A DNA stretch of 64,000 nucleotides from an uncultured Candidatus Saccharibacteria bacterium. Lineage in GTDB: Bacteria > Patescibacteriota > Minisyncoccia > Phycocordibacterales > UBA9973. Of the stretch, positions 101-24,401 are shown piece after piece; the first letter of the stretch is position 1; each line of letters begins with the position of its first letter. Made by a program: the position numbers and the translations under genes. Under the pieces are notes generated by a model that ran no database searches, was not told where the DNA came from, and was given only the letters and a program-made list of their open reading frames with translations. Location of the stretch: the NCBI GenBank assembly GCA_964502615.1, contig CAZCXF010000003.1:8962-72961 (forward strand), in the 5' to 3' direction.

Positions 101-307
101 ATGAAAAAAATAGTAATTTCGCTAATAAACACATATCAGAAAATACCTCTTAAATCACACAATTCATGTGTCTTTATACCCACATGTTCTCAATATACAA
201 AAGAATCTATTGAAAAACATGGTTTAAGCAAAGGCCTCTTACACGGGTTTTTAAGGATTTGTAGATGTCATCCTTGGCAAAAAAACCATTATGATCCTAT
301 AAAATAA
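101..307 (+). CDS. yidD: membrane protein insertion efficiency factor YidD
   Basis: 68 aa with the conserved IPTCSQY...RCHPW motif of the YidD family; sits immediately upstream of yidC. Confidence 0.8.
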   Translation: MKKIVISLINTYQKIPLKSHNSCVFIPTCSQYTKESIEKHGLSKGLLHGFLRICRCHPWQKNHYDPIK

Positions 308-348
308 AGTGATTTTGGGTTTCTGTATTTTTAAGATACAATAGGAGG

Positions 349-1089
349 ATGCATGCACTATGGAACACAATCTTCTATCAACCAATATATAACGCTCTTG
401 TTTTTACAATCAACAATATTACCTTTGGTGATGTTGGCTTTGCTATTATCTTTATAACTATAGTAGTGAAATTTATCCTATTCCCTCTTACTAAAAAATC
501 TATAAGAAGCCAGGTTCTAATGAAGAGAATTGAACCAGAACTAAAGAGTATTAAAAAAGATTTTCCAAATAAAGAAGAACAAGCTAAAAAAACATTTGAG
601 TTATATAAAAAATATGGAGTAAACCCATTTTCTGGTTGTTTGGTTGTTTTACTCCAACTCCCAGTTATTTTTGCTTTATATTATGTTTTTTATAAAGGAT
701 TGGATTTATCAAGTGGTCCTCTATATTCTTTTATTCACGCTCCTTTTGATGTACATAATAATTTTTTAGGATTAGTGGATATACATAGTAAAAGTATAGT
801 TCTTGCAGTAATGGCAGGTATATCTCAATTTATTCAAGGATATTTAGCTTCACCTATAAAACCAAAAGTTGAAGTTGTAAAAGATATTAAAAAAGATGAA
901 CCCAAAACATTTCAAGAACAGATGTCAGACAGTATGCAGTTAAATGTAAAATATTTCCTACCTATTTTTATAGCTTTTATTGCTTATCAAATATCTGCTG
1001 CGGTTGCATTATATTGGATTACCAGTAATATATTTACTATAGTTCAAGAATGGTATATAAGACGTGAATTAAACAAAAACACTATATAA
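349..1089 (+). CDS. yidC: YidC/Oxa1 family membrane protein insertase (short Gram-positive/CPR type)
   Basis: 246 aa polytopic protein with YidC-like hydrophobic core; in the yidD-yidC-jag gene order. Confidence 0.8.
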   Translation: MHALWNTIFYQPIYNALVFTINNITFGDVGFAIIFITIVVKFILFPLTKKSIRSQVLMKRIEPELKSIKKDFPNKEEQAKKTFELYKKYGVNPFSGCLVVLLQLPVIFALYYVFYKGLDLSSGPLYSFIHAPFDVHNNFLGLVDIHSKSIVLAVMAGISQFIQGYLASPIKPKVEVVKDIKKDEPKTFQEQMSDSMQLNVKYFLPIFIAFIAYQISAAVALYWITSNIFTIVQEWYIRRELNKNTI

Positions 1090-1095
1090 ATCACT

Positions 1096-1563
1096 ATGCA
1101 AGATAAAATTAAACAAATAATAGAAGATATTTTCAAACACACAAATTGCACAATTTCAAAGTGTGAGTTTTCAGATGAACATGGAATGCTTTGGTGTATG
1201 ATAGAAACCCCTGATTCTAGATTTATGATCGGAAGAGATGGAGAAACACTAAGATCTCTTAATCATTTAGTTCAAAAAGTTATAGAAAAAGATTTACCTG
1301 AAAATGAAACAACTAAGATATTTATTGATGTGAATGGTTACCAGAAAAAACGTTTTAATGATTTAAAAAATATTGCTCACATGATGGCAGAACGTGCTCG
1401 CTACTTCAAAAGTAATATTGAGATTGATCCAATGCCAGCTTTCGAGCGACGTATCATACACATGTTTTTAGAAGGATCTCCTGATATTAAAACAGAGTCC
1501 GAAGGTTTTGGTCCCAATAGAAAAGTGGTAATTAAATATACACCAAACAATATAACTATTTAA
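1096..1563 (+). CDS. khpB: Jag/KhpB-like RNA-binding protein (KH + R3H domains)
   Basis: 155 aa; KH-like GRDGETLRSL segment and C-terminal R3H-like segment; follows yidC in the conserved order. Confidence 0.65.
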   Translation: MQDKIKQIIEDIFKHTNCTISKCEFSDEHGMLWCMIETPDSRFMIGRDGETLRSLNHLVQKVIEKDLPENETTKIFIDVNGYQKKRFNDLKNIAHMMAERARYFKSNIEIDPMPAFERRIIHMFLEGSPDIKTESEGFGPNRKVVIKYTPNNITI

Positions 1564-2559
1564 CTAATGACCGTTTGTTGACCAGTGCCAATTCTCTATT
1601 GGTAAATTTCTCAAACCATATTTACTAGAGTTTTGACTTAACCAATCAAAACAAACTTTTGTAGATCCTACTATTGGGAATCTATTTTTCCTTCCAGTTC
1701 CTATGTTTATAAGTGAACCGTTACATTTTAAATCAAAAGCTAACCCTGTTTCGTGCATAGACGTTCCAGGATATGCTGTAGTTGGATTACATTTTGCATT
1801 TTTATTAAATTCATTTCCAACTCCACAATTTGCTCTTCTAGTTGCTATTTGTTCGGCTGGAGTTCTAAATCCTCCACCTGAAATTTTTAATCCAGCAGCA
1901 TTAGCATCAGCTATCATTTGTTTAAACTTTGCAGAAATTGATTTACAAGCGATAAATCTCACTGTAACAGTTTTTACTTCCTCTACCCCCTCTGGACATT
2001 TTGAAGTCTTGGCACCTGTTGAAGGAATAACTGTTTTTTCGTTAGATAGGATTGGATCTCCATCAACACTAATATCATTACTAACCTGATCCAACGTCAA
2101 TCCGTCTTTCCCTGTCAGTGCCGGATCTATGGTGTTTAAAATAGCATATGCACCAAGAGCAAGTAATAACCCCCCAATAGGACCCCAAATCTTCTTTTTA
2201 AGCTCTGCTTTCTCAGTAAATGACTCACTAGTCATATACGATATACCATGGATTATTAGCATAATAACTGCCAATACTCCACATATACCAATAGCTACAT
2301 TAAATAGAATATTAAAATACTTACCTATATCATTCGTCTCTATCTTCTCTAACCCTGGTAATGGAGCAAGGAGACAATATATATTTTCGTCTCTTTTAGT
2401 TTTTTCGTCCTTTTTAATACAAGGGTCACCTGACGGTTTATCCTTTTCAGCATTTATTGTAACTGGAGTATCCCCTGTCCCAGCATAAATATTAATAACA
2501 GAAATAGATAGATTAAATATTACTATTAGTGTTACAAGAAATACTTTTAAAGGTTTCAT
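1564..2559 (-). CDS. T4SS-associated cell-wall hydrolase: N-terminal signal/TM, VirB2/TrbC-like two-helix module, C-terminal M15 (VanY-like) metallopeptidase domain
   Basis: Two hydrophobic helices separated by a short charged loop (IGKYFNILFNVAIGICGVLAVIMLIIHG...KKKIWGPIGGLLLALGAYAIL). C-terminal SMHETGLAFD (SxHxxGxAxD) and ENWHW motifs of LAS/M15 peptidases. Paralog of 3978-5264. Confidence 0.55.
   Translation of the reverse strand: MKPLKVFLVTLIVIFNLSISVINIYAGTGDTPVTINAEKDKPSGDPCIKKDEKTKRDENIYCLLAPLPGLEKIETNDIGKYFNILFNVAIGICGVLAVIMLIIHGISYMTSESFTEKAELKKKIWGPIGGLLLALGAYAILNTIDPALTGKDGLTLDQVSNDISVDGDPILSNEKTVIPSTGAKTSKCPEGVEEVKTVTVRFIACKSISAKFKQMIADANAAGLKISGGGFRTPAEQIATRRANCGVGNEFNKNAKCNPTTAYPGTSMHETGLAFDLKCNGSLINIGTGRKNRFPIVGSTKVCFDWLSQNSSKYGLRNLPIENWHWSTNGH
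2078..2385. repeat. duplicated segment, copy A (paired with 4705-5012)
   Basis: ~308 bp recognisably similar with a ~118-bp core (2121-2238 vs 4748-4865) differing at about one position. Confidence 0.8.
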
Positions 2560-2560
2560 T

Positions 2561-3949
2561 TTAATTTAAATCCAAACTCCACAGCGTCCCATCTTTTTTA
2601 TTAATAAAATAAAGAGCAGTATTTTCTTTATTTAAAAATAAGTGCGTAGCATCTAAGTATTGATTACCTAAACTATCAACATCTGCAATACTTGAAACTT
2701 CTCCGGTTAAGCTGTTTATTTTTACAAAAGTATCATCAAAAGATGTCAATCCTTGGTACCAAGAATCTGGTTGTTTACTACCTAGAGTATCTGGTATTGC
2801 ACAATATATTGTTATATTATCATCTTTCCAAACACATTTTTCTGGTAAACCACCTATATTTAAATTAGAAATAAAATGGCTTGATGTGTTTAATAGATTT
2901 AATTCCGGCTCTGAATCATTATAAGAACTGTATAATACTACTAACCCATCTTTATTTGAAAGAGTTGTTAATCCTCTAACTCCACCAAGTATCTTCTTTA
3001 AAGTCCCGTTGGTCGTATTTAAACTAAATAGACTACCATTTACAGAACTCGATGCTCTTGTTGTAAGAAAAACATTAGAAGCACCTACCCATTGGGACAA
3101 CCACTCTGAATAAGGAGATGAAAAAACTTGAGATTTTTTATTATCATAAAACGATCTTACCCAACCGGAAATTCCATTTGAATTTTTTACAAGATAAAAG
3201 AATTGGGTTTTATCTGGAGATAAACTTAAATCAATAATGTTTGAAGGCAAAAACTCTCCTTTATCAGCCCCAAGGGTAGCAAAGTAACTACTTATTGTTT
3301 TATTATCTCCAGATAAATATCTGTAAATTATAGAAGAAGCTTTACTGTCAAAAATAGCTTCATATATTCCAGGAATCGTAGAGTTAGATATCTTACTTAC
3401 AGTTTTTGTATCTAAATACATTTGATAAATATGTCCTGTAACTTTTTCAACATACCTAAGAGAAGGAACAGTCTCTACTGTTGGAACGACTGGTTTTTTA
3501 TCTGCCACTTTTTTATTTTTAGTATTTATAGGTTCAGTTTTAGTTTGGGGCTTATCTCCACCTTTAAGTGGGACTTCAGTTGTTGTTTGAGCAGGCTCAC
3601 CACCCCCCTTAACTGGAATTTCATCTACAGGTAAAGGTCTAGTATCCTCAAAAAACGCAGCACCAGATACTGCAAAATCTGTTAACTGATGTAGTCTAAT
3701 TTTTGTTTCCCCTACTCCAACAATTTCAGGGTTATCTGAATTCTGATTTGAAGGATTCTCATTAACCAGAGTACTACTATCTGTAGTAGGTTGCTTAGTA
3801 TTAAAAAGACTGCCAAATAATCCATAAGCACTAGAGTTTGTGCCACTAGAAGAATTACTATTTTTTTTACTAGATATATAGTAAACCAAGAATACCAGGC
3901 CTACTAAAATAAACACAGATATAAAAATTATTTTCGTTTTACGTGGCAT
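2561..3949 (-). CDS. bitopic membrane protein with Pro/Thr-rich linker and large extracytoplasmic domain (VirB8/VirB10-like topology; function unknown)
   Basis: N-terminal TM, low-complexity Ser/Pro-rich region, long beta-rich C-terminus; embedded in the T4SS-like operon. Confidence 0.3.
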   Translation of the reverse strand: MPRKTKIIFISVFILVGLVFLVYYISSKKNSNSSSGTNSSAYGLFGSLFNTKQPTTDSSTLVNENPSNQNSDNPEIVGVGETKIRLHQLTDFAVSGAAFFEDTRPLPVDEIPVKGGGEPAQTTTEVPLKGGDKPQTKTEPINTKNKKVADKKPVVPTVETVPSLRYVEKVTGHIYQMYLDTKTVSKISNSTIPGIYEAIFDSKASSIIYRYLSGDNKTISSYFATLGADKGEFLPSNIIDLSLSPDKTQFFYLVKNSNGISGWVRSFYDNKKSQVFSSPYSEWLSQWVGASNVFLTTRASSSVNGSLFSLNTTNGTLKKILGGVRGLTTLSNKDGLVVLYSSYNDSEPELNLLNTSSHFISNLNIGGLPEKCVWKDDNITIYCAIPDTLGSKQPDSWYQGLTSFDDTFVKINSLTGEVSSIADVDSLGNQYLDATHLFLNKENTALYFINKKDGTLWSLDLN

Positions 3950-3977
3950 AGATTAACCCTTTAATTGTACCATAAAA

Positions 3978-5264
3978 CTATTTATCCTGAGCTACACATT
4001 GAGTATACAAATCAGCCCTAATAGGGGCTTCAGTATTCATAAATTTTCCACCCCCACTACAACTACCAGATCCATACGCTCTATAAGTTTGTTCAATGTT
4101 TTTGCCACATTTCTTATAGTTGTTATTCATAATATAAGCACCCAAAAGAATATCAACCATAGGATCATATAAATCTTTTGCGAATATTCTCTGATGACCA
4201 GGTATTGTTGTTTGAATACCTACCGTATAGTCTGCGTACTTTGAGCCCTTAGGGTAAAGCGTTACACCTAAAAGGCCTATTCCATGAGAAAACCTCCAAT
4301 CGAGACCTAAATCTTGAGCATTTGGGTTTAAAGCAGAATAAGGTTTACCTTGTATATGTTCTGTGTTTTTAAAAGAACCCTTTTCAATCAAAGTGTTATC
4401 TGGAGTAAAAGTTGTACCATCATACTTTTTACCAGAAGCAATAAATTCTCTTCTTGATTTAATTCCAGATGATGCAGCATCTTCATCGTGACCAACAAGA
4501 CCTTCAATACCTCCAGATTCTCTTTGTATTGCAGCTTGAAGTAAGCAGTGTGGAATATTATACTCAGGTTTAGCAGCTATTTCCTTTATAGTATTATAAT
4601 ACTTAGTTCTTTTAAACTTTTTTGTACTTGGATTTGATTGAGTTTCAATAAGTCTTATTTGTTGACCTTCAGATAAGGTAACATTAGGGTCAATATTTAT
4701 GTTGTTACTAACCTGATCCACCGTCAGCCCCTCCTTCCCCGTCAGCGCCGGATCTATAGTGTTTAAAATAGCATATGCACCAAGAGCAAGTAATAACCCC
4801 CCAATAGGACCCCAAATCTTCTTTTTAAGCTCTGCTTTCTCAGTAAATGACTCACTAGTCATATAACTAATCCCATGAATGATTAGCATGATAACTGCAA
4901 GCACTCCACATATACCAATAGCTATATTAAAGAGTATATTAAAATACTTCCCTATATCATTAGTTTCTATGCTCTTTAGCCCTGGAAGTGGAGCCAGGAG
5001 ATTGTAGGTGGTGTTGTTTGAAGGTTTACCGTTTTCAGCATTTATTGTAACGGGAGTATCCCCTTTTTTATAACAAAAAGTATTACCATTAATATTTTTT
5101 AGAGCATCTGAACACAATTCTTTTGTGGCGTATGGTCCTTGTACAACATTAGCAGTATCTAAGAAATACCACTCTTCTTCAGCAGAAACAAAAGCAACTT
5201 GAAAAGAAAGGAAGATATTAAATATTACCGTTAGTATTAATAGATATATATTTAACTTCTTCAT
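3978..5264 (-). CDS. T4SS-associated cell-wall hydrolase: VirB2/TrbC-like two-helix module fused to lytic transglycosylase (SLT-like) domain
   Basis: Same TM module as 1564-2559, near-identical at DNA level. C-terminal LLQAAIQRESGG catalytic-glutamate motif typical of family-1 lytic transglycosylases. Confidence 0.5.
   Translation of the reverse strand: MKKLNIYLLILTVIFNIFLSFQVAFVSAEEEWYFLDTANVVQGPYATKELCSDALKNINGNTFCYKKGDTPVTINAENGKPSNNTTYNLLAPLPGLKSIETNDIGKYFNILFNIAIGICGVLAVIMLIIHGISYMTSESFTEKAELKKKIWGPIGGLLLALGAYAILNTIDPALTGKEGLTVDQVSNNINIDPNVTLSEGQQIRLIETQSNPSTKKFKRTKYYNTIKEIAAKPEYNIPHCLLQAAIQRESGGIEGLVGHDEDAASSGIKSRREFIASGKKYDGTTFTPDNTLIEKGSFKNTEHIQGKPYSALNPNAQDLGLDWRFSHGIGLLGVTLYPKGSKYADYTVGIQTTIPGHQRIFAKDLYDPMVDILLGAYIMNNNYKKCGKNIEQTYRAYGSGSCSGGGKFMNTEAPIRADLYTQCVAQDK
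4705..5012. repeat. duplicated segment, copy B (paired with 2078-2385)
   Basis: See copy A. Confidence 0.8.
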
Positions 5265-5265
5265 T

Positions 5266-6261
5266 TTATAGTGTTAGGTTTAACTTCCCAGCAACTTTTT
5301 GGAATAAGAAATTCAAATTTTCCATAACTAAGTCAATAGTTGCATAACCACCTCTTTCTGCAGGTCTAACAGTTAGTTCTGTTTTTTTGGATGGAGTGTC
5401 AATTGTTTCACCGTTTATTTTCCAGTTATAAGAAAAATTTACCTCGTTACCATCTAATGCCAAGAAGTACGGTTCAGCAACTAAAGTAACTTCATCTTCT
5501 GAAATTAAAGTTCCGTCTGTTAATGCGTTGTTATATAAAACCCCCTCAGTAGGTGATTTCTTATAAAATATAATTTTTGGATTAACAATTGGTATATCTA
5601 TTGTTTTAGTAGCATTATATTTCCCATCTATAGATGAAGCTTGAACAGATATATTTTCTTTTGTTTTTAGTTGATCGTTGGAGAAAATATAATAATCTTT
5701 TCCGTAACCAGAAGCACTCTGTACAGCATTGTCGTCATTTTGCCAAGCGTAAGTAATATTACCCTTACCCTTCGTTATAATGTTTGTGTTTGGAATAGCA
5801 ACTACTTTTATTGTACTTTCTCTGGATGGGAAAGATTTACCTCTATAAAAAGGTGGAGTATAAGATCCTATACTTTCCCACATAAGCTCGACTTCAGAAG
5901 TTTTTATTGTAACCTTTTTTGTAAATTTATCTGCACTATCTGGCGGTGTTATTGTAATATAAAAATCCGTTGTAAGATCTGGTCCTGGTGCTTGAAAAGA
6001 ATAAGAAAGTTTTCCATAACCAGATAATAATATTTTTGAACCATTATGCCATTCAATAAAAGCTTTATTTAAGTCAGTAGCATAACTAGATATTTTTATA
6101 GTAACATCCCCATATGGTTCTGGATTTTCTGGTATGGTTGTTACATCTATGTCTCCATCTTGGAGTCCTACTTCGGAAGCATGGGTTAATAAACTTGGAG
6201 TTAACAAAACACCAAGCACCAATAGACCAAAACCGATAGTTTTCATTTTTAAGAATATCAC
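5266..6261 (-). CDS. secreted beta-rich protein, unknown function (T4SS operon member)
   Basis: N-terminal signal peptide (MKTIGFGLLVLGVLLTPSLLTHA); no recognised domain. Confidence 0.3.
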   Translation of the reverse strand: MIFLKMKTIGFGLLVLGVLLTPSLLTHASEVGLQDGDIDVTTIPENPEPYGDVTIKISSYATDLNKAFIEWHNGSKILLSGYGKLSYSFQAPGPDLTTDFYITITPPDSADKFTKKVTIKTSEVELMWESIGSYTPPFYRGKSFPSRESTIKVVAIPNTNIITKGKGNITYAWQNDDNAVQSASGYGKDYYIFSNDQLKTKENISVQASSIDGKYNATKTIDIPIVNPKIIFYKKSPTEGVLYNNALTDGTLISEDEVTLVAEPYFLALDGNEVNFSYNWKINGETIDTPSKKTELTVRPAERGGYATIDLVMENLNFLFQKVAGKLNLTL

Positions 6262-6304: not shown

Positions 6305-8137
6305 TTATTGCTTATTTGCTTGTGCCAAGTCATCCTTTGCTTTTTTTATAGCTAGTATTTGTGATGGATCTGAAGTAATTATCTGATCTTCTGTATATGA
6401 AGCGATAGTTTTTACTGCAACGTGTTTAAGCCCAGCAAAGAATATCCCTTCCCCAACATTTGCTTCCAATAATAGGTATTTTTCTTCATCTGTTAGATTA
6501 AAAGTTTTCTGGAGTACATCAACAGTTGACGGAGATTGTTTTAATAGTAGTTGAATAGAAGTGATGGTAACAATAGGCACTGCATAAGGACTCTTCATGA
6601 AGTCGCCAACATCTTGAGTGATAGTTGCAAGTCCAAGGTAGTATTTACGCCCACGTTTAGCAATAGAATATAGGAATGAAGCGGTATCTTCAGATTTCAT
6701 CATCCACCAAGCCTCATCAACCACAAGAAGTCTCTTTTTAATATTTTTACGAACAGCGTTCCATATATAGTGTGTGACTATGTACATTGCGACTGGTTTT
6801 AGTTCGTCTTCCATGTCTCGAACTGAAAATACTACGAACTTTCGATTTATATCTACGTTTGAAGGTTGATTCAAAAATGATGCCCAAGATCCGTGAGTGA
6901 ATTTTGTTAAACGCTGTATTAATGATGCACTTCCCTCCATTCCAGCAAGCACCATCTCAAAGTCAGTAAGAAGTGGTGGTTCAATGTTTGCAAAATTTGA
7001 GTCAGGAGTAATATCTTTTAAAGCGTACGTTTCAGTGATAGCTCGATCGATAATTGAATCTTCTTCTGGAGTAAGGCCTCCAAGCATTATACGAAATAGA
7101 CCTACTAAGTTTATAGTGTTTGCACGAAGGACATCAGCTGGTGTTTCATCTGCTGTAGGTATTGGAAGATCAAAAGGATTGATATGGTGATCAGAAGAAA
7201 GAGCAATATTGAAGTATCTTCCACCAACAGCTTCGGATAAATATTCATACTCTCTTTCTGGGTCAATAACAATAACTTCAGTATCAAACATAAGAGTACG
7301 AATAACTTCAAGTTTAGTAGCATAAGATTTTCCCGCACCAGAAGTCGCGAAAGTTATAGAATTGTAGTTTGGAAGAGAGAATCTATCAAATATAATAAGA
7401 CTAGAGTTATGACGATTTACCCCATAAAGAATTCCTTTGTCAGAGGTTAGATCAAAAGATACGAAAGGAAATAAACTAGAAAGTGGCTCGGTATTTAACT
7501 TTTGATGTATTCCCAAAACATCAGTTCCCAGAGGAATTACACTTTTAAAAGCTTCATCCTGTTGGAATAGTGCTGGTTTTAGATATATAAGTTTTGATTC
7601 CAATAAAGATTTAATTTCACTTTCTATTTTAAATAAGTCATTTTCATTATCAGCATAAACTGTAATATAAAGACCAACATCAAACATTTTTTCCTGTGCC
7701 TGCATTAGGTTATCGCGCAAACTCTCTAGATCTCTATAAGCAGTATCGAGCATTGGGTCACGAACAAGACCTTTAGATTCTCGAATAGATATCTGGCTTT
7801 GAACTTCTGCAACTTTATTTTGAAAAGTATGAAGCACATCCACAGTGTCTATAGGATGTATAAATATTGAAACATCAAAAACTTTGTCCAGGTTTATTAT
7901 TGGTGAAAACCAGTTATCAGTAAGATATCTTGGATATGATATGACAAAGAAAGTTCGAGCAATTTTATCTCCAAGATTAAGCGATTTTGGTGTGATTTGG
8001 AGTGCAGATGGTGCAATAATATCTTGAAGCTCTAGTACAGCAGCTTTATATATTTCAGCAGGCAAAACAGGCATAACCATATTTTTAGGTTTTGTTATGT
8101 CGTTCTTTTTCCCAAATAATGATGAAAATATACCCAT
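6305..8137 (-). CDS. virB4: VirB4/TrbE/CagE-family T4SS ATPase (ATPase domain)
   Basis: Walker A FATSGAGKSYATK and Walker B LLVVDEAWWMM; size and motif spacing as in VirB4 C-terminal AAA_10 domain. Confidence 0.8.
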   Translation of the reverse strand: MGIFSSLFGKKNDITKPKNMVMPVLPAEIYKAAVLELQDIIAPSALQITPKSLNLGDKIARTFFVISYPRYLTDNWFSPIINLDKVFDVSIFIHPIDTVDVLHTFQNKVAEVQSQISIRESKGLVRDPMLDTAYRDLESLRDNLMQAQEKMFDVGLYITVYADNENDLFKIESEIKSLLESKLIYLKPALFQQDEAFKSVIPLGTDVLGIHQKLNTEPLSSLFPFVSFDLTSDKGILYGVNRHNSSLIIFDRFSLPNYNSITFATSGAGKSYATKLEVIRTLMFDTEVIVIDPEREYEYLSEAVGGRYFNIALSSDHHINPFDLPIPTADETPADVLRANTINLVGLFRIMLGGLTPEEDSIIDRAITETYALKDITPDSNFANIEPPLLTDFEMVLAGMEGSASLIQRLTKFTHGSWASFLNQPSNVDINRKFVVFSVRDMEDELKPVAMYIVTHYIWNAVRKNIKKRLLVVDEAWWMMKSEDTASFLYSIAKRGRKYYLGLATITQDVGDFMKSPYAVPIVTITSIQLLLKQSPSTVDVLQKTFNLTDEEKYLLLEANVGEGIFFAGLKHVAVKTIASYTEDQIITSDPSQILAIKKAKDDLAQANKQ

Positions 8138-8138
8138 A

Positions 8139-8792
8139 TTATTGTAATTTAATTCCCCTACTAATATCTCCTGGGTTGAAAGTCTTATAGAAAAGCTCTA
8201 CTTCTTCTTCTGTTGTTAGTTGACTGCTTCTAATACCGAGTCCTCCAAGTCCTGAAATTATAACATTAACTCTTTGGTCCAACTGGCTTCGTTTTTCTTC
8301 AAAGGAAGCCATTTCGAGAGCTTTCTTTGTATTTTCAACAGCTTTTTTTGTTTCGCCTCCGCCTATAATTTTATCAAGTAACCCGTCCCCTGATTTTAGT
8401 ACTGTTGGACTATAAGGCACTACAACGAAAAAGGTTTTAGTCATTATATTTACTTCATCAGTAAACGCTCTGATAAAATCAATATATTCTTTTGTTTGTA
8501 TTTTTAGAAGTTTTTCGTTTTGAACCTTGAGCCTTTCTTCAAGCATTCCTAAGTATGGCCTAATATCTAGTCTTCTTGATTGCATAACGATCTGGGTTGA
8601 AAAATCTAAACCATTTAAAAAAGATTGAAATTGACTAATTATAGCTGCTTGCTCATCTGCAGATTTAAGAGAAAGGTTTATAGAAGAGGCAATCAAGACA
8701 GCTCGAAGTCCCCCATCTTTTAAAATGATAACCCCATTTCTTACTTCTTTTATTGGTACAAATTCTTGAGCTGCGCGTGCGTTTATAGCCAT
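8139..8792 (-). CDS. probable VirB4 N-terminal domain, encoded as a separate ORF (split virB4 or frameshift)
   Basis: 217 aa soluble protein directly abutting the VirB4 ATPase ORF (stop TAA, 1 nt, ATG, different frame). 217+610 aa matches a canonical VirB4 (~800 aa). N-terminal sequence resembles the N-terminus of Firmicutes VirB4 homologues (from memory, not verified). Confidence 0.35.
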   Translation of the reverse strand: MAINARAAQEFVPIKEVRNGVIILKDGGLRAVLIASSINLSLKSADEQAAIISQFQSFLNGLDFSTQIVMQSRRLDIRPYLGMLEERLKVQNEKLLKIQTKEYIDFIRAFTDEVNIMTKTFFVVVPYSPTVLKSGDGLLDKIIGGGETKKAVENTKKALEMASFEEKRSQLDQRVNVIISGLGGLGIRSSQLTTEEEVELFYKTFNPGDISRGIKLQ

Positions 8793-8813: not shown

Positions 8814-9227
8814 CTACTCCTTATTATTCTCATCAGGCTGCACATCCAAACTCCAAGATATATCTCTTAATTTACTAGAAGAGAGAACTGGTAGAACTGA
8901 AGTTTGCGGGAGGGCCTCTTCTTCTTTGTTTGCATCCTTGGGTTTAGCTAGACGCTGTTTCCATATATACAGCTTGTTTGAAATAGCATAATTTATCGCT
9001 GCTTGGAGGTAGTATATAAAAGGCTTATTGTTTATCTTGTAAAAAGTTAAAAGGCCTGCTAGAAGCCCGACTGGTAGTATCAACAAAATTGCTATCCAAA
9101 AAGGTAGAAGTTTGTATAGAACAAATATCATTCCAGCACCCCCTGCCATGTATACGAACTGTCTAAAAGTAAAAGGACCAAAAAGTTTATCCTCAACGTC
9201 TATAAATTGTGGAACTTTAAATTGCAT
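8814..9227 (-). CDS. PrgI-family / VirB3-like small membrane protein
   Basis: N-terminal KVPQFIDVEDKLFGPFTFRQF motif followed by two TM helices; located directly upstream of virB4 as in Gram-positive T4SS loci (prgI-prgJ). Confidence 0.55.
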   Translation of the reverse strand: MQFKVPQFIDVEDKLFGPFTFRQFVYMAGGAGMIFVLYKLLPFWIAILLILPVGLLAGLLTFYKINNKPFIYYLQAAINYAISNKLYIWKQRLAKPKDANKEEEALPQTSVLPVLSSSKLRDISWSLDVQPDENNKE

Positions 9228-20486: not shown

Positions 20487-23400
20487 TTACCTTTCATATA
20501 TACGGCGTGTAGGAGAAATTGAACGCATCATCTTGTCTTGGCTAGGTACATCTCCTTCATAGTCTCTACTCCATGAATCTCTATCATTCCAATCTATTGG
20601 CCTCTTGAAACCATAAAGTGTATTATCGTCAGCCTTATATACTTTCTCTGTTATACGTTTTATGTATGTTTCCATATTTTCATTACCAATAGGTTTTTCG
20701 TTTCCAAGCGTGTGTTCAACTTTGTCCACGAATTTCTCATAGTCTTTACTACCTACAAGTTTCTTATAGAATCCAGATAAACGTTCCACTTCATTTCTGT
20801 GTGAGAATGAATATGTTCCAGTTAGTGGATTTTGACTAATGATTCCTTTTCTTACAAGTTTATCTAAATCTGCTTTTGGTAAATTGTTTCCATTTAGAAA
20901 ATCTTCTTGCATGAAATATTTTGCCGGTATTTTTTCTACAATTTTCCATTCCTCGGTAGGTCTAAAGTATTCTTGTGTAACTCTCACGTCTGGACCCGGA
21001 ACATTTCTTCCAAGAACTGGATCATAAATAACTTTAGGTACATTTTCTACTCGGACATTTGTTCCAAATAGTTGTTGCAGTTCACGCTCTTTATTGAAGT
21101 CTTCATAAGAATCAAAGTTTAAACCTTTTTGTTCAAACATCTGATCGTTCGCGGTATTCCAATCATCATATTTTAGACCATCTTTAGTGTCATCAATTGT
21201 TGGATATTCAGGTTTGTCTATTAAAACGGTTTTATTTCCAAAAGTTTGCCTTATCTCTCTGGCTGTTTCTAAATGCCTAGGATCTGATTCTATTGGTAAA
21301 CCTTCACCAGTGCTATTGTTTACAGCGTTTTCATAAACGCCATTACCTTTATTGGTAAATATTGCTTCTCTATCTGTCATAGGTACTTCTCTTGAAGTCG
21401 TTCCAGGATTTGGTCCACCTTTAATTGCACCAGATCTAGGATAAACATTTCCCGTTTCCTCTCCTGTATTGTATCCACCTACAGCCTCAGTAGGTTTTAT
21501 TATTTTCCCAGATCCTATACCTTCGTTACTAAAACCATCTGGCTGTGTCGGACGAACATTGTTATCCATAATTATGGGTGTCTCTGTTTTAGTAACTGTA
21601 CCAAGTCCATACTCATCAACTTTTTCTGCTGTAATACTTGGTCCAGAAATCTTACGAGCCCCAGATAGATCAATATCATTTTCTTCCACCTTAGGAGTAG
21701 GCACTGTGTCTATGTTTACTGGTGCTGTTGTTCCTGTCACTTGGTGCGCTCCGGATAGATCAATAGATTCATTATTTACTGTTGAGTTTAATTCTGTTCC
21801 ATTCAGTGCAACGTTCTCAGTATTAACTCCTTCTTGGAAATCTACATTTTCTGTTTTTATTGCTGACTCATCTAATATAGTTGATTCTGTTGAAATTTTT
21901 GCAGTACTAATTATGTCTTTATCGTCTAGTTTTATATTTTTATTGAAATTATCTTCAACGACTGGAGATTTTGAGATATCAGCAACCTTTTCTAATTTTG
22001 GAGCAACTTTAATTTTTGGACTTCCATCTGCTTTGACTGTTGGTTGATCGTCTACAGGTACTTTCACTTCTGCTTTAGGAGTTGGTGGTAGAGTATCGTT
22101 TAAATTAGTTTGTGTAGTTATGTGAGCACTGTCTGGAATATTTGCTGGTACAGTATTAACATTAACGGTATCTTTTATTGAAGATGTTAATACACTATCC
22201 TTGCTTGGTAGATTCTGTAACATCTCATTGTTACTAACCTTTGTCATACCGATAGCCCCTGCAACTTTATCTTGGTGGTGCCCCAAAATACTACTCCAGT
22301 TAATAGTAAGGCCAAGTCTCTCTTGTATGTCACGGATTTCATAAGCCAAACCAGAAAATGTTGCTGCAACTAAAGCACCACGGATTATTTCATGTTTCTT
22401 AAATGCTGCTTGTTTGTCATCGAACCCAATTTCATTCTTCTGTCTCAATCTCTCAAGAATAACTGCTACATCTCTGTTGTCTTCTTGGATTAAGTCTCTA
22501 AGTTGTCTTTTCTCCATTCTTGAAGAACCATCCATACTCATGACCTTAATTTCTATTAGCTCATCTGGTATATCTGCAAAGTTTGGTTTGTTTGCTTGTA
22601 TTTCAACAGCTGCTTTAGACAAAAGTCTTAGCATTTCATAGTTTATTCCAACTGGATTATTAGTACCATAGTTTATAAGACCTTCTTCTAATTTACTTCT
22701 TATATAGTTTGAGCGTCTCTCAAGTTCAAGTATTAATCTTGCCTTTTCTCCAGGATTTGTAGTTCCTCCAATTTTATTTAATATATTTTCCAATCTTTGT
22801 ATTTGACTGTCCGCATCTATAAATCCTGCTACTTCTCGAGCATTTACGTCTTTACCAGATATCACTTTGGAAGCTTCTTTTAATATCTTGCCTTTAAGCT
22901 CCATATCTTTACTTGAGTTCTTGTCTTCAAAAATTTGCCCAGGCTGGTAGGGTTTACCATTGGCCATTATAGGAGTTCCTTGTTCATCAAGCATTACATT
23001 TCCAGCATCATCTTTTTTAAAGTTGTTGCTGTACTTCTCTCTTGCGAGCATCCTTTCCTCCCTAGTCATCTCTCTAAAAGTTTTACCTTCTCTTCCCTCA
23101 CTAAAAGCTTTGTTTATTTTTTGTTCAGCTTTTCTTTTTGCTCTAAGTGCTCCTATTGTCGCTGCTGTGATAGGACCTGCTAATGTTGCAAATCCTCTCA
23201 ATGCCCACCTGCTGGCATATCCTAACCCCATATAACTTGCTCTCCACAAGTTTTCATTATTTGCCAGCTTTTTCCAGGATGAAGATTCTTGTAATTTTTC
23301 CATTTCCAAGATTGCATCTGGGCTCGTATTTGTAAATTGCATCATAGATATCTTGTAGTCTTTCTCACACATGAATGTTTGTGCTTTTTCTACAGCAAGT

Positions 23401-24401
23401 GAAGCCTCCATTCCTTCATCTTTGTATTTTTTCGCACGTAAATCTATGACTTTCTTTTTTGCTTCGTTATATTCATGCTCAAGCAAAATATATTTATCGT
23501 AATTTTTCTCACTACCGAGCCCTTTTGCAGCTCTTTCATTTTTCCATGAATCTGGCATTTTTGAGAATTCATTTGCTTTTTCGTTATATTTTTCTACAGC
23601 TTCTTTAACTTCAGGAGACATAGCAGGATCAATTTGTATAAACTCTATGCTTGGCTTACCAGCATTATCAATCACTTTCAAATTAAGCTCAGACATTCTT
23701 TTTGTTAAAGCTCCCAATACTTCTTCGTCGGGCTTGAGTTTTCCTGATCTAAAATCTTCCAAAGCTTCTTTACTTTGTGAATTTACGTAAGATGATTTCC
23801 ATATCTTTTTCCATACTTTACCAAGAGCACTAGGACGCCACTTAAATACGTTAAATGTTCCATTTATTTTGTTTTTTTCATTAAATCTTTTTTCTCCCTC
23901 TTTTTTTACATCAACAAATATTTGCTGAGATGCTTGTTCTATAACCAACATTTTTTGTGGTTCAGTTAGAGTTGCCCATTCTGGTATAGATTCAAAATCT
24001 TTTTCTTTTAGACCAACCTTCCTTAGTTTTTTACCAAGTAAAGTGCTGGCATTTCTGGCTTCTTCTTCTGCTTCCTTCTTTTCCAAATGTTCTTCAATGC
24101 TTTGTTTTATAACTTCAGCTTGCTCTTCATTTGTTTTCTTCGTTTCCTCTGCTTGCTCGGCAATTGTCTTTTTTAGTTCCTCTTTGAGGTTTCCTATCTT
24201 TATTTTCTCTCTGAATGTATCAATAGTAACTTGGTCAAATCCTAGATTGATAAGCCCTGCATCGCTTTCTCCGGATTTGATTGCCATAGTAAGAATCATT
24301 TCTTTACTACTACCGATCTGGCTCTTCAGTTGCGCAGAAATAGCCTTATTTTCATCTAATTTTTTCTGAGCCTCTTCTTTTGTTAATCCTTCAATTGCCA
24401 T
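20487..24401 (-). CDS. giant (1304 aa) protein of unknown function, coiled-coil N-terminus, one internal hydrophobic segment
   Basis: No signal peptide, no nucleotide-binding motifs; long Lys/Glu-rich coiled-coil; hydrophobic stretch GLGYASRWALRGFATLAGPITAATIGAL. Confidence 0.4.
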   Translation of the reverse strand: MAIEGLTKEEAQKKLDENKAISAQLKSQIGSSKEMILTMAIKSGESDAGLINLGFDQVTIDTFREKIKIGNLKEELKKTIAEQAEETKKTNEEQAEVIKQSIEEHLEKKEAEEEARNASTLLGKKLRKVGLKEKDFESIPEWATLTEPQKMLVIEQASQQIFVDVKKEGEKRFNEKNKINGTFNVFKWRPSALGKVWKKIWKSSYVNSQSKEALEDFRSGKLKPDEEVLGALTKRMSELNLKVIDNAGKPSIEFIQIDPAMSPEVKEAVEKYNEKANEFSKMPDSWKNERAAKGLGSEKNYDKYILLEHEYNEAKKKVIDLRAKKYKDEGMEASLAVEKAQTFMCEKDYKISMMQFTNTSPDAILEMEKLQESSSWKKLANNENLWRASYMGLGYASRWALRGFATLAGPITAATIGALRAKRKAEQKINKAFSEGREGKTFREMTREERMLAREKYSNNFKKDDAGNVMLDEQGTPIMANGKPYQPGQIFEDKNSSKDMELKGKILKEASKVISGKDVNAREVAGFIDADSQIQRLENILNKIGGTTNPGEKARLILELERRSNYIRSKLEEGLINYGTNNPVGINYEMLRLLSKAAVEIQANKPNFADIPDELIEIKVMSMDGSSRMEKRQLRDLIQEDNRDVAVILERLRQKNEIGFDDKQAAFKKHEIIRGALVAATFSGLAYEIRDIQERLGLTINWSSILGHHQDKVAGAIGMTKVSNNEMLQNLPSKDSVLTSSIKDTVNVNTVPANIPDSAHITTQTNLNDTLPPTPKAEVKVPVDDQPTVKADGSPKIKVAPKLEKVADISKSPVVEDNFNKNIKLDDKDIISTAKISTESTILDESAIKTENVDFQEGVNTENVALNGTELNSTVNNESIDLSGAHQVTGTTAPVNIDTVPTPKVEENDIDLSGARKISGPSITAEKVDEYGLGTVTKTETPIIMDNNVRPTQPDGFSNEGIGSGKIIKPTEAVGGYNTGEETGNVYPRSGAIKGGPNPGTTSREVPMTDREAIFTNKGNGVYENAVNNSTGEGLPIESDPRHLETAREIRQTFGNKTVLIDKPEYPTIDDTKDGLKYDDWNTANDQMFEQKGLNFDSYEDFNKERELQQLFGTNVRVENVPKVIYDPVLGRNVPGPDVRVTQEYFRPTEEWKIVEKIPAKYFMQEDFLNGNNLPKADLDKLVRKGIISQNPLTGTYSFSHRNEVERLSGFYKKLVGSKDYEKFVDKVEHTLGNEKPIGNENMETYIKRITEKVYKADDNTLYGFKRPIDWNDRDSWSRDYEGDVPSQDKMMRSISPTRRIYER

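What the first reader, a model, noticed from the sequence alone, without database searches (positions are those of the whole stretch)
1564..5264. Pilin-like (VirB2/TrbC-type) two-helix module fused to two different peptidoglycan hydrolases; paralogs share a near-identical DNA segment
Both proteins have signal/TM, a ~70 aa exposed segment, then a helix-loop-helix hydrophobic hairpin (GKYFNILFN[VI]AIGICGVLAVIMLIIHG ... KKKIWGPIGGLLLALGAYAIL) that strongly resembles the mature T4SS pilin fold. One continues into an M15/VanY-type metallopeptidase (SxHxxGxAxD, ExWH), the other into an SLT-type lytic transglycosylase (QRESGG). Fusing a pilin-like membrane module to cell-wall-cutting enzymes is not a standard T4SS arrangement. 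It differs from VirB1 (soluble) and PrgK (single TM), and would place the two hydrolase activities (peptide cross-link cleavage, glycan cleavage) directly at the channel. The ~300 bp encoding the TM hairpin is almost identical between the two genes (core 118 bp with ~1 mismatch) while flanks have diverged. This argues for recent gene conversion or recombination homogenising specifically that module, which is a sign of functional constraint or concerted evolution.
Basis: seen in the sequence. Interest (0 to 1): 0.7.

Follow-up and report, generated by a model that had tools for sequence, protein, structure and literature searches.

The report
Secretion-system pilins fused to swappable wall-cutting enzymes
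In this ultra-small (Patescibacteria) bacterium, the only pilin-like genes in the sequenced part of its origin-proximal type IV secretion locus are each fused to a different cell-wall enzyme, and related species keep the pilin part while swapping the enzyme part, which suggests a modular tool for breaching cell walls.

Summary

They lie in a Patescibacterial MPF-FATA-like T4SS operon (VirB3/PrgI, TrsD, VirB4, VirB6-like) next to yidC/jag and, in related contigs, dnaA. This system is already described, but I found no paper describing the fusion.

New context:
- In 76 of 84 related loci (80 of them species representatives), the pilin-module gene sits at the same position after virB4 and nearly always carries a C-terminal enzyme.
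- There are at least 22 unrelated C-terminal types (NlpC/P60, VanY, SLT, YkuD, M15_4, GH73-like, unknowns). They turn over almost independently of VirB4 phylogeny.
- In all 8 loci with two copies, the pilin modules are identical or nearly identical within the genome but differ between genomes, which indicates gene conversion or recent duplication.
- In Saccharibacteria, the pilins and the hydrolases are separate essential genes.

The most likely role is a pilin-anchored, T4SS-docked set of wall enzymes with swappable cassettes. Whether the target is the cell's own wall or the host's is unresolved. This is a new variant of a known kind.

The parts
3978..5264 (-). geneB, 428 aa: signal peptide, small GYF-like N-domain, pilin-like hairpin, linker, lytic-transglycosylase-like domain
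1564..2559 (-). geneA, 331 aa: signal peptide, short N-region, pilin-like hairpin, linker, VanY/M15 metallopeptidase domain
   Evidence: ORF. Pfam VanY 36.4 bits (cut-off 25) and T4SS_pilin E 1e-4. NCBIfam pilin-like E 3.5e-9.
4725..5006 (-). Pilin-like module of geneB (aa 87-180): YNLLAPLPG beta-hairpin, TM helix 1 (aa 108-132), basic loop SYMTSESFTEKAELKKK, TM helix 2 (aa 150-167), NTIDPALTGKEGL junction
2098..2379 (-). Pilin-like module of geneA (aa 61-154)
4705..5001 (-). Shared DNA segment, geneB copy (297 bp, 89.2% identical to 2078-2374)
   Evidence: blastn; alignment A1
2078..2374 (-). Shared DNA segment, geneA copy
   Evidence: blastn
4759..4865 (-). 107-bp perfectly identical conversion tract, geneB copy (loop plus TM helix 2)
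2132..2238 (-). 107-bp perfectly identical conversion tract, geneA copy
5019..5064 (-). Second short shared segment, geneB copy (46 bp, 91% identical to 2431-2476; encodes GDTPVTINAE)
2431..2476 (-). Second short shared segment, geneA copy
3984..4670 (-). Lytic-transglycosylase-like domain of geneB (aa 199-427); catalytic Glu-Ser in QRESGG (window 4509-4526), GLLGV (4263-4277), YRAYGSG (4065-4085)
1582..1944 (-). VanY/M15 domain of geneA (aa 206-326); SMHETGLAFD (window 1732-1761) and ENWHW (1582-1596)
2561..3949 (-). Conserved 462-aa exported or membrane-anchored protein of unknown function, lying between the two pilin-enzyme genes. Syntenic in relatives whatever the enzyme type.
5266..6261 (-). 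Conserved 331-aa secreted protein of unknown function, lying between virB4 and geneB
6305..8137 (-). VirB4-like ATPase (CD1110 family)
   Evidence: NCBIfam 362 bits (cut-off 325); Pfam P-loop_TraG
8139..8792 (-). TrsD/TraC-like protein, equivalent to the N-terminal domain of VirB4 encoded as a separate gene
8814..9227 (-). PrgI/VirB3-like protein
   Evidence: Pfam PrgI 41 bits
10293..12992 (-). 899-aa polytopic membrane protein with about 7 hydrophobic segments, a candidate extended VirB6
   Evidence: Hydropathy scan. No Pfam hit, so the assignment is inferred.

Best explanation
geneA and geneB are the cell-wall-active components of a chromosomal, origin-proximal Patescibacterial type IV secretion system of the monoderm MPF-FATA-like kind.

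**Architecture and predicted topology.** Each protein is exported by a cleavable signal peptide. It is then held in the membrane by a VirB2/T4SS_pilin-like helix-loop-helix hairpin: N-terminus outside, short basic loop inside, C-terminus outside. The enzyme domain therefore faces the wall.

**Proposed mechanism (inferred).** The pilin-like hairpin is the piece that recruits the enzyme into the T4SS or its pilus-like conduit, in the position a VirB2-type subunit would occupy. A glycan-strand cutter (the SLT-like domain of geneB) and a stem-peptide peptidase (the VanY/M15 domain of geneA) would then act exactly where the machine has to pass peptidoglycan. This is the VirB1/PrgK/CwlT job, done by 'evolved pilins'.

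**Cassette behaviour.** The enzyme domain is an exchangeable cassette. Recombination at the conserved junction just after the second helix (NTI[D/N]PxLxGxxG[L/I]x[V/I]xQV) swaps it between lineages. Gene conversion keeps the pilin modules of paralogues in one genome alike, presumably because both must fit the same machine.

**Shown:** domain identities, locus, predicted topology, cassette turnover, within-genome homogenisation.
**Inferred:** docking to or polymerisation with the T4SS, enzymatic activity, and which wall (own or host) is cut.
For: **Domains**
- Pfam and NCBIfam hits.
- AF2 model with pLDDT 87.4: a 101-136/140-170 helical hairpin and a confident C-domain.

**Topology**
- Signal-peptide-like N-termini ending VSA|EEE and IYA|GTG; KKK loop.

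**Locus**
- Tightly packed minus-strand genes: VirB6-like, PrgI, TrsD, VirB4, a 331-aa gene, geneB, a 462-aa gene, geneA. The gaps on either side of geneB and before geneA are 1-28 nt.
- The locus is conserved next to jag-yidC-rnpA-dnaA, as published for Patescibacteria (PMC12102498).

**No stand-alone pilin**
- Only these two ORFs in 64 kb carry the module.

**Generality**
- 76 of 84 related loci have a module ORF at the same place, and only about 4 lack a C-domain.
- 235 of 242 database relatives have at least 100 aa after the module.
- Among 100 representatives the C-domains are VanY 33, SLT 12, YkuD 10, NlpC/P60 7, Amidase_2 4, and others.

**Cassette swapping**
- Loci with 98% identical VirB4 carry VanY+SLT (window), VanY+GH73-like (L005) or NlpC/P60+GH73-like (L007).
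- Sharing of a C-domain type falls to 19% at 90-95% VirB4 identity.

**Homogenisation**
- Paralogue modules are identical or near-identical in all 8 two-copy loci. L070 has 820 bp at 100%, L006 418 bp at 100%, L007 317 bp at 100%.
- Between species the module diverges faster than VirB4.
- The 107-bp core is 100% identical within genomes and 84-96% between them.

**Rosetta-stone support**
- In S. epibionticum, stand-alone PF18895 pilins and separate M15-like and lysozyme proteins downstream of virB4 are all essential (PMC10633639 supplements).
Against: - The window proteins score just below the curated cut-offs of PF18895 and NF045849, and far below that of TrbC PF04956.
- No experiment shows that any PF18895 protein forms a pilus or contacts VirB4/VirB6.
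- A 20-26 kDa domain on every subunit may be hard to pack on a VirB2-type filament (my inference).
- VanY-type and YkuD-type domains are not classical wall-cutting enzymes.
- Only 64 kb of this genome is visible, so stand-alone pilins may be encoded elsewhere.
- The related loci are metagenome assemblies. Perfectly identical repeats of 300-800 bp could in principle be affected by assembly.
Confidence: 0.6

Rival explanations
1. Host-directed 'armed pilus'. The pilin modules polymerise, alone or with other pilins, into an extracellular T4SS pilus or tube. Its surface or tip displays the N-terminal adhesin-like domains and the C-terminal peptidoglycan enzymes, which digest the HOST bacterium's wall at the contact site. 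This would be analogous to evolved VgrG/Hcp/PAAR effectors of type VI secretion.
For: - The enzyme type turns over very fast and almost independently of phylogeny, as for polymorphic effectors.
- The module evolves faster than VirB4, as surface-exposed pilins do.
- The N-terminal regions vary from 25 to 475 aa and include TIG/fn3 Ig-like domains.
- No stand-alone pilin is present in the locus.
- Both termini are predicted to lie outside the membrane.
- The T4SS and its pilins are essential for epibiotic growth in Saccharibacteria, and a pilus has been proposed (PMC10633639, PMC12857230).
Against: - No pilus has been demonstrated for any Patescibacterial T4SS.
- Decorating every subunit with a globular domain raises a steric problem (inference).
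- No co-varying immunity gene lies next to the enzyme cassettes. The neighbours are the conserved 462-aa gene and jag.
- The own-wall and host-wall roles are not mutually exclusive.
Confidence: 0.25
2. Precursor model. The protein is a polyprotein. After membrane insertion it is cleaved at the highly conserved NTI(D/N)P junction, which yields a mature VirB2-like pilin and a free secreted hydrolase. This would parallel the C-terminal processing of TrbC/VirB2 pilins.
For: - The T169, I170, P172 and L174 motif immediately after helix 2 is nearly invariant, and a low-confidence linker follows it.
- C-terminal trimming of TrbC-type pilins is established knowledge for RP4 (from memory, not tested here).
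- It would solve the steric problem of an enzyme on every subunit.
Against: - No TraF-like or signal-peptidase-like gene was detected in the locus.
- The conserved motif could equally be a docking or recombination junction.
- There are no proteomic data.
Confidence: 0.1
3. Generic anchor. The hairpin is just a 2-TM membrane anchor whose profile hits are driven by hydrophobic composition. The proteins are housekeeping wall-remodelling enzymes unrelated to T4SS function.
For: - Sub-threshold Pfam scores for the window proteins, with weak cross-hits to unrelated membrane families such as Cyt_bd_oxida_II and OAD_gamma.
- Structure searches return only generic hairpins.
Against: - The module hits PF18895 in 79 of 100 relatives, down to E 9.5e-19, and the Mycoplasma ICE pilin-like family at E 3.5e-9. 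The unrelated membrane families sit at E of about 0.05.
- The gene keeps a strict position after virB4 in 76 of 84 loci.
- Conserved extracytoplasmic motifs (YxLLAPxPG, NTINP) go beyond hydrophobicity.
- The same Pfam family forms the essential stand-alone pilin array of the S. epibionticum T4SS.
Confidence: 0.07
4. The near-identical segment reflects nucleotide-level selection (an embedded RNA or regulatory element) or an assembly artefact, rather than gene conversion.
For: The perfect core is sharply bounded. The relatives are metagenome-assembled genomes.
Against: - The same 107 bp differs by 4-16% between genomes while staying 100% identical within each, so no fixed nucleotide sequence is required.
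- The identical tract has different lengths and limits in other genomes, from 268 to 820 bp.
- Rfam finds nothing there.
- Both proteins recur with identical sequences and gene order on contigs from four independently assembled samples.
Confidence: 0.03

Closest known systems
Patescibacterial T4SS with VirB2-like (PF18895) pilins (Wang et al. 2023, Cell, PMC10633639; Quinonero-Coronel et al. 2025, PMC12102498)
   Same: - The same machine and gene set: PrgI/VirB3, TrsD, VirB4, VirB6-like and PF18895 modules.
- Origin-proximal location near dnaA, yidC, rnpA and ksgA.
- No relaxase or coupling protein was detected among the locus genes scanned (1564-27173).
- M15-like and lysozyme-like genes directly downstream of virB4.
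   Different: - In S. epibionticum the pilins are stand-alone proteins of about 125-140 aa in an array of six, and the hydrolases are separate proteins.
- Here pilin module and enzyme are one polypeptide, and no stand-alone pilin is present in the locus.
- The 2025 survey counted VirB2 and VirB1 homologues separately and concluded that most VirB2-carrying genomes lack VirB1. It does not mention fusions.
Monoderm T4SS peptidoglycan hydrolases (PrgK of pCF10, TraG of pIP501, CwlT of ICEBs1, TcpG of pCW3)
   Same: - Encoded in the T4SS operon.
- Membrane-tethered with the enzyme outside.
- A glycosidase activity combined with a peptidase activity.
   Different: - Those carry both activities in one protein behind a single N-terminal TM or signal anchor.
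- Here the activities are split over two proteins. Each sits behind a cleavable signal peptide plus a VirB2-like two-helix hairpin, and the enzyme types are swapped between close relatives.
VirB2/TrbC/TraA conjugative pilins
   Same: - Signal peptide followed by a two-helix hydrophobic hairpin with a short basic loop.
- Encoded beside virB3/virB4.
- Weak but repeated profile similarity to PF04956 (best 3e-6 among relatives).
   Different: - Canonical pilins are about 70-130 aa with no extra domains. These are 331 and 428 aa, and relatives reach 900 aa, with N-terminal and C-terminal globular domains.
- Pilus formation is untested.
Structural-subunit/effector fusions: evolved VgrG, Hcp and PAAR of T6SS; flagellar FlgJ (rod cap plus glucosaminidase); the T3SS EtgA-EscI pair; phage tape-measure or tail proteins with lysin domains
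   Same: - The logic of attaching a wall-degrading domain to a structural piece of a trans-envelope machine.
- A conserved N-terminal carrier with polymorphic C-terminal enzymatic cassettes and a conserved recombination junction.
- The geneA VanY domain hits a phage tape-measure PHROG at E 3e-7.
   Different: - A different machine and a different carrier fold.
- No adjacent immunity genes.
- All cassettes identified so far target peptidoglycan rather than diverse cellular targets.
Mycoplasma ICE 'Mbov_0395 family pilin-like conjugal transfer protein' (NCBIfam NF045849)
   Same: The best single-family profile hit of the module (E 3.5e-9 and 8e-9). It sits next to a VirB4 of the related Mbov_0397 family.
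   Different: That family is a stand-alone protein of about 80 aa. The score here (35-36 bits) is below the 40-bit equivalog cut-off.

Membership tests
T4SS_pilin (Pfam PF18895), part of the VirB2-like pilin superfamily | Profile match at or above the curated gathering score (26.6 bits) | tested here: inconclusive
   - Full proteins score 22.8 and 23.0 bits (E about 1e-4). The isolated module scores 26.5 bits.
- 24 of 26 diverse module relatives and 79 of 100 representative relatives match at E<1e-3, best 9.5e-19.
- Membership is therefore supported through the chain of homologues, not by the window sequences alone.
T4SS_pilin (Pfam PF18895), part of the VirB2-like pilin superfamily | Signal peptide followed by two hydrophobic helices joined by a short basic loop | tested here: met
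   - AF2 helices at 101-136 and 140-170.
- Hydropathy scan and KKK loop.
- Signal-peptide-like N-termini.
T4SS_pilin (Pfam PF18895), part of the VirB2-like pilin superfamily | Encoded within a T4SS gene cluster near virB3/virB4/virB6 | tested here: met
   The position is conserved in 76 of 84 related loci.
T4SS_pilin (Pfam PF18895), part of the VirB2-like pilin superfamily | Small single-domain protein (about 70-140 aa) | tested here: not met
   The proteins are 331 and 428 aa. 235 of 242 relatives carry at least 100 aa after the module.
T4SS_pilin (Pfam PF18895), part of the VirB2-like pilin superfamily | Polymerises into an extracellular pilus | not testable with these tools
   No experimental data exist for any Patescibacterial T4SS pilin (PMC12857230).
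TrbC/VirB2 pilin (Pfam PF04956) | Profile match above the gathering score (27.9 bits) | tested here: not met
   - geneA scores 13.9 bits (E 0.064) and the isolated module 17.6 bits.
- 10 of 26 relatives match at E<0.01, best 3e-6.
- This is a distant superfamily-level similarity only.
VirB2-like pilin fold (structure) | A specific structural match to solved VirB2, TraA or TrbC pilins | tested here: inconclusive
VanY / peptidase M15B (Pfam PF02557) | Profile match above the gathering score, plus the Zn-ligand motifs H-x6-D and a C-terminal H | tested here: met
   - 36.4 bits against a cut-off of 25, covering aa 206-326.
- SMHETGLAFD and ENWHW are present.
- Weak PDB sequence matches to DD-carboxypeptidases and YodJ.
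- Bond specificity was not tested.
SLT / family-1 lytic transglycosylase (Pfam PF01464, lysozyme-like fold) | Profile match, the catalytic Glu-Ser motif, and a goose-lysozyme/Slt-like fold | tested here: met
   - Pfam 21.5 bits against a cut-off of 21.3, partial match only.
- QRESGG, with Glu present in 69 of 88 aligned relatives.
- Lytic transglycosylase versus hydrolytic lysozyme chemistry was not tested.
Monoderm VirB1-like T4SS hydrolases (PrgK/TraG/CwlT type) | A single polypeptide with an N-terminal single-TM anchor carrying both a glycosidase and a peptidase domain, encoded in the T4SS operon | tested here: not met
   The operon location is met. However, the activities are split over two proteins and the anchor is a signal peptide plus a two-helix hairpin. 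The genes are a functional analogue, not a member.
Polymorphic toxin/effector systems (Rhs, CdiA, evolved VgrG/Hcp) | A conserved N-terminal carrier with non-homologous C-terminal domains exchanged at a conserved junction | tested here: met
   - At least 22 C-domain clusters behind one module family in 76 loci.
- The breakpoints lie at the ...NTI(N/D)P...QV junction.
- Turnover is nearly independent of VirB4 identity.
Polymorphic toxin/effector systems (Rhs, CdiA, evolved VgrG/Hcp) | A cognate immunity gene immediately downstream that co-varies with the toxin domain | tested here: not met
   The downstream neighbours are the conserved 440-462-aa gene or jag, whatever the enzyme type. In the window the gaps around these genes are 1-28 nt, which leaves no room for a small ORF.

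The most novel reading that the evidence does not exclude
In Paceibacteria-type Patescibacteria, the T4SS conduit is built from or capped by 'evolved pilins'. These would be VirB2-like subunits that carry polymorphic peptidoglycan-active enzymes at the C-terminus and adhesin-like domains at the N-terminus on the outside of the filament. The pilus itself would then bore through the host bacterium's wall. The enzyme cassette would be swapped by recombination at a conserved junction to track host wall chemistry, a type IV counterpart of evolved VgrG/Hcp spikes.
Probability: 0.25. Interest if true: 0.85.

Novelty: new variant of a known kind. Interest (0 to 1): 0.62.

Why it matters
The T4SS is one of the few machines shown to be essential for the epibiotic life of Patescibacteria, and its role is described as completely unknown (PMC11665869). 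Three points follow from the findings here.

- **A link between pilin and hydrolases.** In a large clade, the pilin-like subunit and the wall-active enzymes are one polypeptide. In Saccharibacteria they are separate essential genes. This is Rosetta-stone evidence that pilin and hydrolases work together physically.
- **A correction to the published picture.** It revises the conclusion that Patescibacterial VirB2 systems mostly lack a VirB1 function.
- **A testable hypothesis.** Wall breaching at the symbiont-host interface may be a core job of this machine. The cassette-like turnover of enzyme types behind a constant, genome-homogenised carrier suggests selection at that interface.

The data also supply a catalogue of candidate new peptidoglycan-active domains: at least four recurrent C-domain families without a Pfam match, one of which (unk-B) has a GH73-like predicted fold.

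Tried and rejected
**Structure and sequence searches that gave nothing useful**
- Foldseek of the whole geneB model against the PDB gave nothing significant (best E 0.7, to Slt).
- A profile search of the module alignment against PDB sequences returned no pilin. The best hit was MacB at E 0.5, which is noise.
- phmmer of both full proteins against PDB sequences gave only weak DD-carboxypeptidase hits for geneA.
- tblastn of the module against 72,556 plasmids found no match, so no close relatives exist on sequenced plasmids.
- PHROGs gave nothing for the two unknown C-domain families, the 462-aa gene or the 331-aa gene.
- Pfam and NCBIfam gave nothing for the 331-aa, 462-aa, 344-aa, 899-aa, 259-aa and 952-aa neighbours.
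- Rfam found no RNA family in the region.

**Ideas considered and rejected**
- Nucleotide-level constraint as the cause of the 107-bp identity. Rejected because the tract differs between genomes.
- An immunity gene next to the cassettes. None was found.
- A general rule of 'one glycosidase plus one peptidase'. It holds for the window, L005 and L007 (SLT or GH73-like, plus VanY or NlpC/P60), but 68 of 84 loci have only one fused gene.

**Literature**
- Seven full-text searches found no description of a pilin-hydrolase fusion.

Full report
**1.

The window has about 35% G+C. Its first 17.6 kb carries yidD, yidC and jag on the plus strand, followed by a tightly packed minus-strand gene row.

The two genes of the finding are geneA (1564-2559, 331 aa) and geneB (3978-5264, 428 aa). 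A DNA alignment and blastn show:
- one ungapped 297-bp match at 89.2% identity (window 2078-2374 vs 4705-5001);
- a second 46-bp match at 91%;
- a core of 107 bp of perfect identity (2132-2238 vs 4759-4865), which becomes 119 bp if one mismatch is allowed.

Within the 297 bp, 32 nucleotide differences fall in 26 codons: 21 are synonymous and 5 change the amino acid. The protein module is therefore under strong purifying selection while silent sites have drifted, except in the core. With flanks about 16% diverged, an uninterrupted run of 107 identities has a probability of about 6e-9. Both proteins recur with identical sequences and gene order on contigs from four separately assembled metagenome samples, so an assembly artefact is unlikely.

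**2. What the proteins are**

*Enzyme domains.*
- geneA matches VanY/M15 above Pfam's curated cut-off (36.4 vs 25 bits, aa 206-326). It has the SMHETGLAFD and ENWHW metal-ligand motifs.

*Pilin-like module.*
- Both proteins match Pfam T4SS_pilin (PF18895) at E about 1e-4, slightly under the cut-off. The isolated module scores 26.5 vs 26.6 bits.
- Both match the NCBIfam 'Mbov_0395 pilin-like conjugal transfer protein' at E 3.5e-9 and 8e-9, and TrbC/VirB2 (PF04956) only weakly.
- Across relatives the assignment is solid. 24 of 26 diverse modules and 79 of 100 cluster representatives match PF18895 (best 9.5e-19), and 10 of 26 match TrbC/VirB2 (best 3e-6).

*Topology (predicted).* The model shows a signal-peptide helix, a small beta/alpha N-domain, a beta-hairpin (YNLLAPLPG...), two long helices (101-136 and 140-170), a low-confidence linker, and then the enzyme. 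Given a cleavable signal peptide, a KKK-containing loop and two hydrophobic helices, the predicted topology is N-out, loop-in, C-out. That is the VirB2 topology, with the enzyme outside (inference).

**3. Context**

Upstream on the same strand lie, in order moving away from geneB:
- a conserved 331-aa secreted protein;
- VirB4 (CD1110 family, 362 bits);
- a TrsD/TraC-like protein;
- PrgI/VirB3;
- a 344-aa protein;
- an 899-aa protein with about seven hydrophobic segments, a candidate VirB6;
- further membrane-anchored unknowns, then ksgA.

Related contigs continue past jag-yidC into rnpA, rpmH, dnaA and dnaN. This is the chromosomal, origin-proximal, relaxase-less, MPF-FATA-like T4SS of Patescibacteria. 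It was described by Quinonero-Coronel et al. 2025 (PMC12102498) and shown to be essential in Southlakia epibionticum by Wang et al. 2023 (PMC10633639). A VirB4-based scan of species-representative genomes places the window among Paceibacteria/Nomurabacteria MAGs.

An HMM of the module, run on all six-frame ORFs of the 64-kb window, finds only geneA and geneB. The locus therefore has no stand-alone pilin.

**4. The fusion is the rule in this clade and the enzyme is a cassette**

*Database relatives.* The 101-aa module alone has 10,865 relatives among 50%-identity cluster representatives at E<=1e-3.
- Of the 242 best that contain the module, 235 carry at least 100 aa after it. The median is about 186 aa before and 190 aa after.
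- In 100 representatives the C-domains include VanY 33, SLT 12, YkuD 10, NlpC/P60 7, Amidase_2 4, Peptidase_M15 2, and M15_4, SLT_2, CHAP and Amidase_5 at 1 each. TIG and fn3 domains occur N-terminally.

*Related loci.* I examined 84 loci: the window, three syntenic MAGs and 80 species representatives, with VirB4 75-99% identical.
- 76 have a module-bearing ORF at the same position after virB4 and the ~330-aa gene. 68 have one and 8 have two.
- Only about four lack a C-terminal domain.
- The C-domains fall into at least 22 unrelated clusters: NlpC/P60 16, unknown-A 12, VanY 10, unknown-B 6, SLT-like 5, YkuD 5, SLT_2 3, M15_4 3, others.

*Turnover.* Enzyme type is almost uncoupled from the phylogeny of the machine.
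- Pairs of loci with at least 95% identical VirB4 share a C-domain type in 3 of 7 cases. At 90-95% identity the figure is 19%, and below that 10-13%.
- The window's nearest relatives make the point. L005 (98.7% VirB4) has GH73-like plus VanY. L007 (98.2%) has GH73-like plus NlpC/P60. The window has SLT-like plus VanY.
- The N-terminal regions are mosaic too. geneB shares its GYF-like N-domain with L007's first gene, while geneA shares its short N-region with L005's first gene.

**5. Concerted evolution of the module**

In all eight two-copy loci the paralogous modules are identical or nearly identical in protein, although the C-domains differ:

| Locus | Shared DNA between paralogues |
|---|---|
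| L070 | 820 bp, 100% |
| L006 | 418 bp, 100% |
| L007 | 317 bp, 100% |
| L078 | 416 bp, 98.8% |
| L005 | 268 bp, 95.9% |
| L086 | about 90% |
| Window | 297 bp, 89%, with a perfect core |
| L026 | 1176 bp, 87%, identical module protein |

The 3' limit of identity always falls just after the conserved NTI(N/D)PxLxGxxG(L/I)x(V/I)xQV junction.

Between species the module diverges faster than VirB4, with median module identity 0.60-0.65 at 85-95% VirB4 identity. The 107-bp core is 100% identical within the window, L005 and L007 but 84-96% between them. This excludes a fixed nucleotide-level element and points to within-genome gene conversion, or in some loci to very recent duplication with replacement of the 3' cassette. 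In the window, geneB's flanks are the divergent ones. That fits arrival of the SLT cassette with part of a foreign module, followed by a short conversion event (inference).

**6. Comparison with the experimentally studied system**

In S. epibionticum, the two genes directly downstream of virB4 are both essential:
- SEML1_0007 is 1113 aa with a C-terminal Hedgehog/DD-peptidase (M15-like) fold.
- SEML1_0006 has two lysozyme-like domains plus a cysteine peptidase.

The PF18895 pilins there are six separate essential proteins of about 125-140 aa, SEML1_0014-0019 (supplementary tables). The window's clade therefore fuses, in one polypeptide, two component types that are separate in Saccharibacteria. 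This is a Rosetta-stone argument that they act together.

The 2025 survey scored VirB1 and VirB2 homologues separately. It concluded that most VirB2-carrying genomes lack VirB1, so that pilus biogenesis does not need it. The fusions described here suggest the VirB1-type function is often hidden inside the 'pilin' genes. None of seven full-text searches retrieved a description of such fusions. Public annotations call these proteins just 'pilin', 'C40 family peptidase' or 'hypothetical'.

**7. Mechanism**

*Best-supported reading (confidence about 0.6).* These are T4SS-integrated, pilin-anchored peptidoglycan enzymes. The VirB2-like hairpin targets or holds the enzyme at the machine. The enzyme, outside the membrane, opens peptidoglycan locally. 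The cassette is exchangeable, and the carrier is kept uniform within a genome because it must fit one machine.
- Shown: domain identities, locus, predicted topology, polymorphism, homogenisation.
- Inferred: docking, activity, target.

*Armed-pilus variant (about 0.25).* This more novel reading is favoured by the effector-like turnover, the fast-evolving module, the Ig-like N-domains and the lack of stand-alone pilins. It lacks any direct evidence, faces a packing problem, and has no immunity genes.

*Other rivals.* A precursor-cleavage model (about 0.1) and a generic-anchor model (about 0.07) are less likely. Nucleotide-level selection or an artefact as the explanation of the repeat is unlikely (about 0.03).

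*A correction on enzymology.* VanY-family domains are carboxypeptidases or L-Ala-D-Glu endopeptidases, and YkuD domains are L,D-transpeptidase-like. 'Cross-link cleavage' should therefore not be assumed.

**8. Verdict**

The machine is known. The fused, cassette-bearing, genome-homogenised 'evolved pilin' architecture is, as far as I could find, undescribed. I rate it a new variant of a known kind.

Caveats:
- The window proteins score below the curated profile cut-offs for the pilin families.
- The fold is uninformative.
- All relatives are metagenome assemblies.
- Only 64 kb of this genome is visible.

Noticed in passing
Proteins P0122, P0127, P0135, P0183, P0232, P0072 (database relatives): Some relatives carry 2-4 tandem pilin-like modules in a single polypeptide, for example P0127 (618 aa, modules at 30-124, 137-231, 244-338 and 352-445). 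These would be covalently concatenated 'poly-pilins', and I cannot explain them.
   Followed up: partly
window 5061-5171 (geneB aa 32-68); L007:10001-11182: The N-terminal exported region of geneB has a small beta/alpha domain with weak GYF/GYF_2 Pfam hits (E 0.015; 0.001 in the L007 homologue) and two Cys residues. It is confidently modelled (pLDDT 83-90). Its function is unknown, and it is shuffled independently of the C-domain.
   Followed up: partly
L006:9085-9996 and 11 other loci (C-domain cluster 'unknown-A'); clusters unknown-C and unknown-D: There are recurrent C-terminal cassette families with no Pfam or PHROG match. Unknown-A, about 160 aa and Cys-rich, occurs in 12 of 76 loci and about 19 database relatives. 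By context these are candidate new peptidoglycan-active domains.
   Followed up: partly
window 2561-3949 and 5266-6261: Two conserved exported proteins (462 aa and 331 aa) flank geneB in every syntenic genome but match nothing in Pfam, NCBIfam or PHROGs. They are likely uncharacterised T4SS components of this clade.
   Followed up: partly
window 8139-8792: A separate 217-aa gene matches the N-terminal region of VirB4-family ATPases (Mbov_0397 positions 104-233; TrsD/TraD family). VirB4 is therefore split into two genes here, as reported for Patescibacteria.
   Followed up: no
window 1564-2091 (geneA C-domain): The only PHROG hit of the VanY domain is to an internal segment of a phage tail tape-measure protein family (phrog_16823, E 3e-7). 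This is another case of a wall-active domain embedded in a structural protein of a penetration device.
   Followed up: no
window 24966-27173 and 20487-24401: A 735-aa protein with an Amidase_2 (N-acetylmuramoyl-L-alanine amidase) domain lies near a 1304-aa ORF that has no Pfam hit. Both are on the same strand as the T4SS row, beyond ksgA and a UvrD helicase. They may be additional large surface or wall-active proteins.
   Followed up: no
window 101-1563 plus related loci L002, L005-L007: The T4SS row abuts yidD-yidC-jag. In related contigs rnpA, rpmH, dnaA and dnaN follow, so the locus sits at the replication origin, in line with the published observation.
   Followed up: yes
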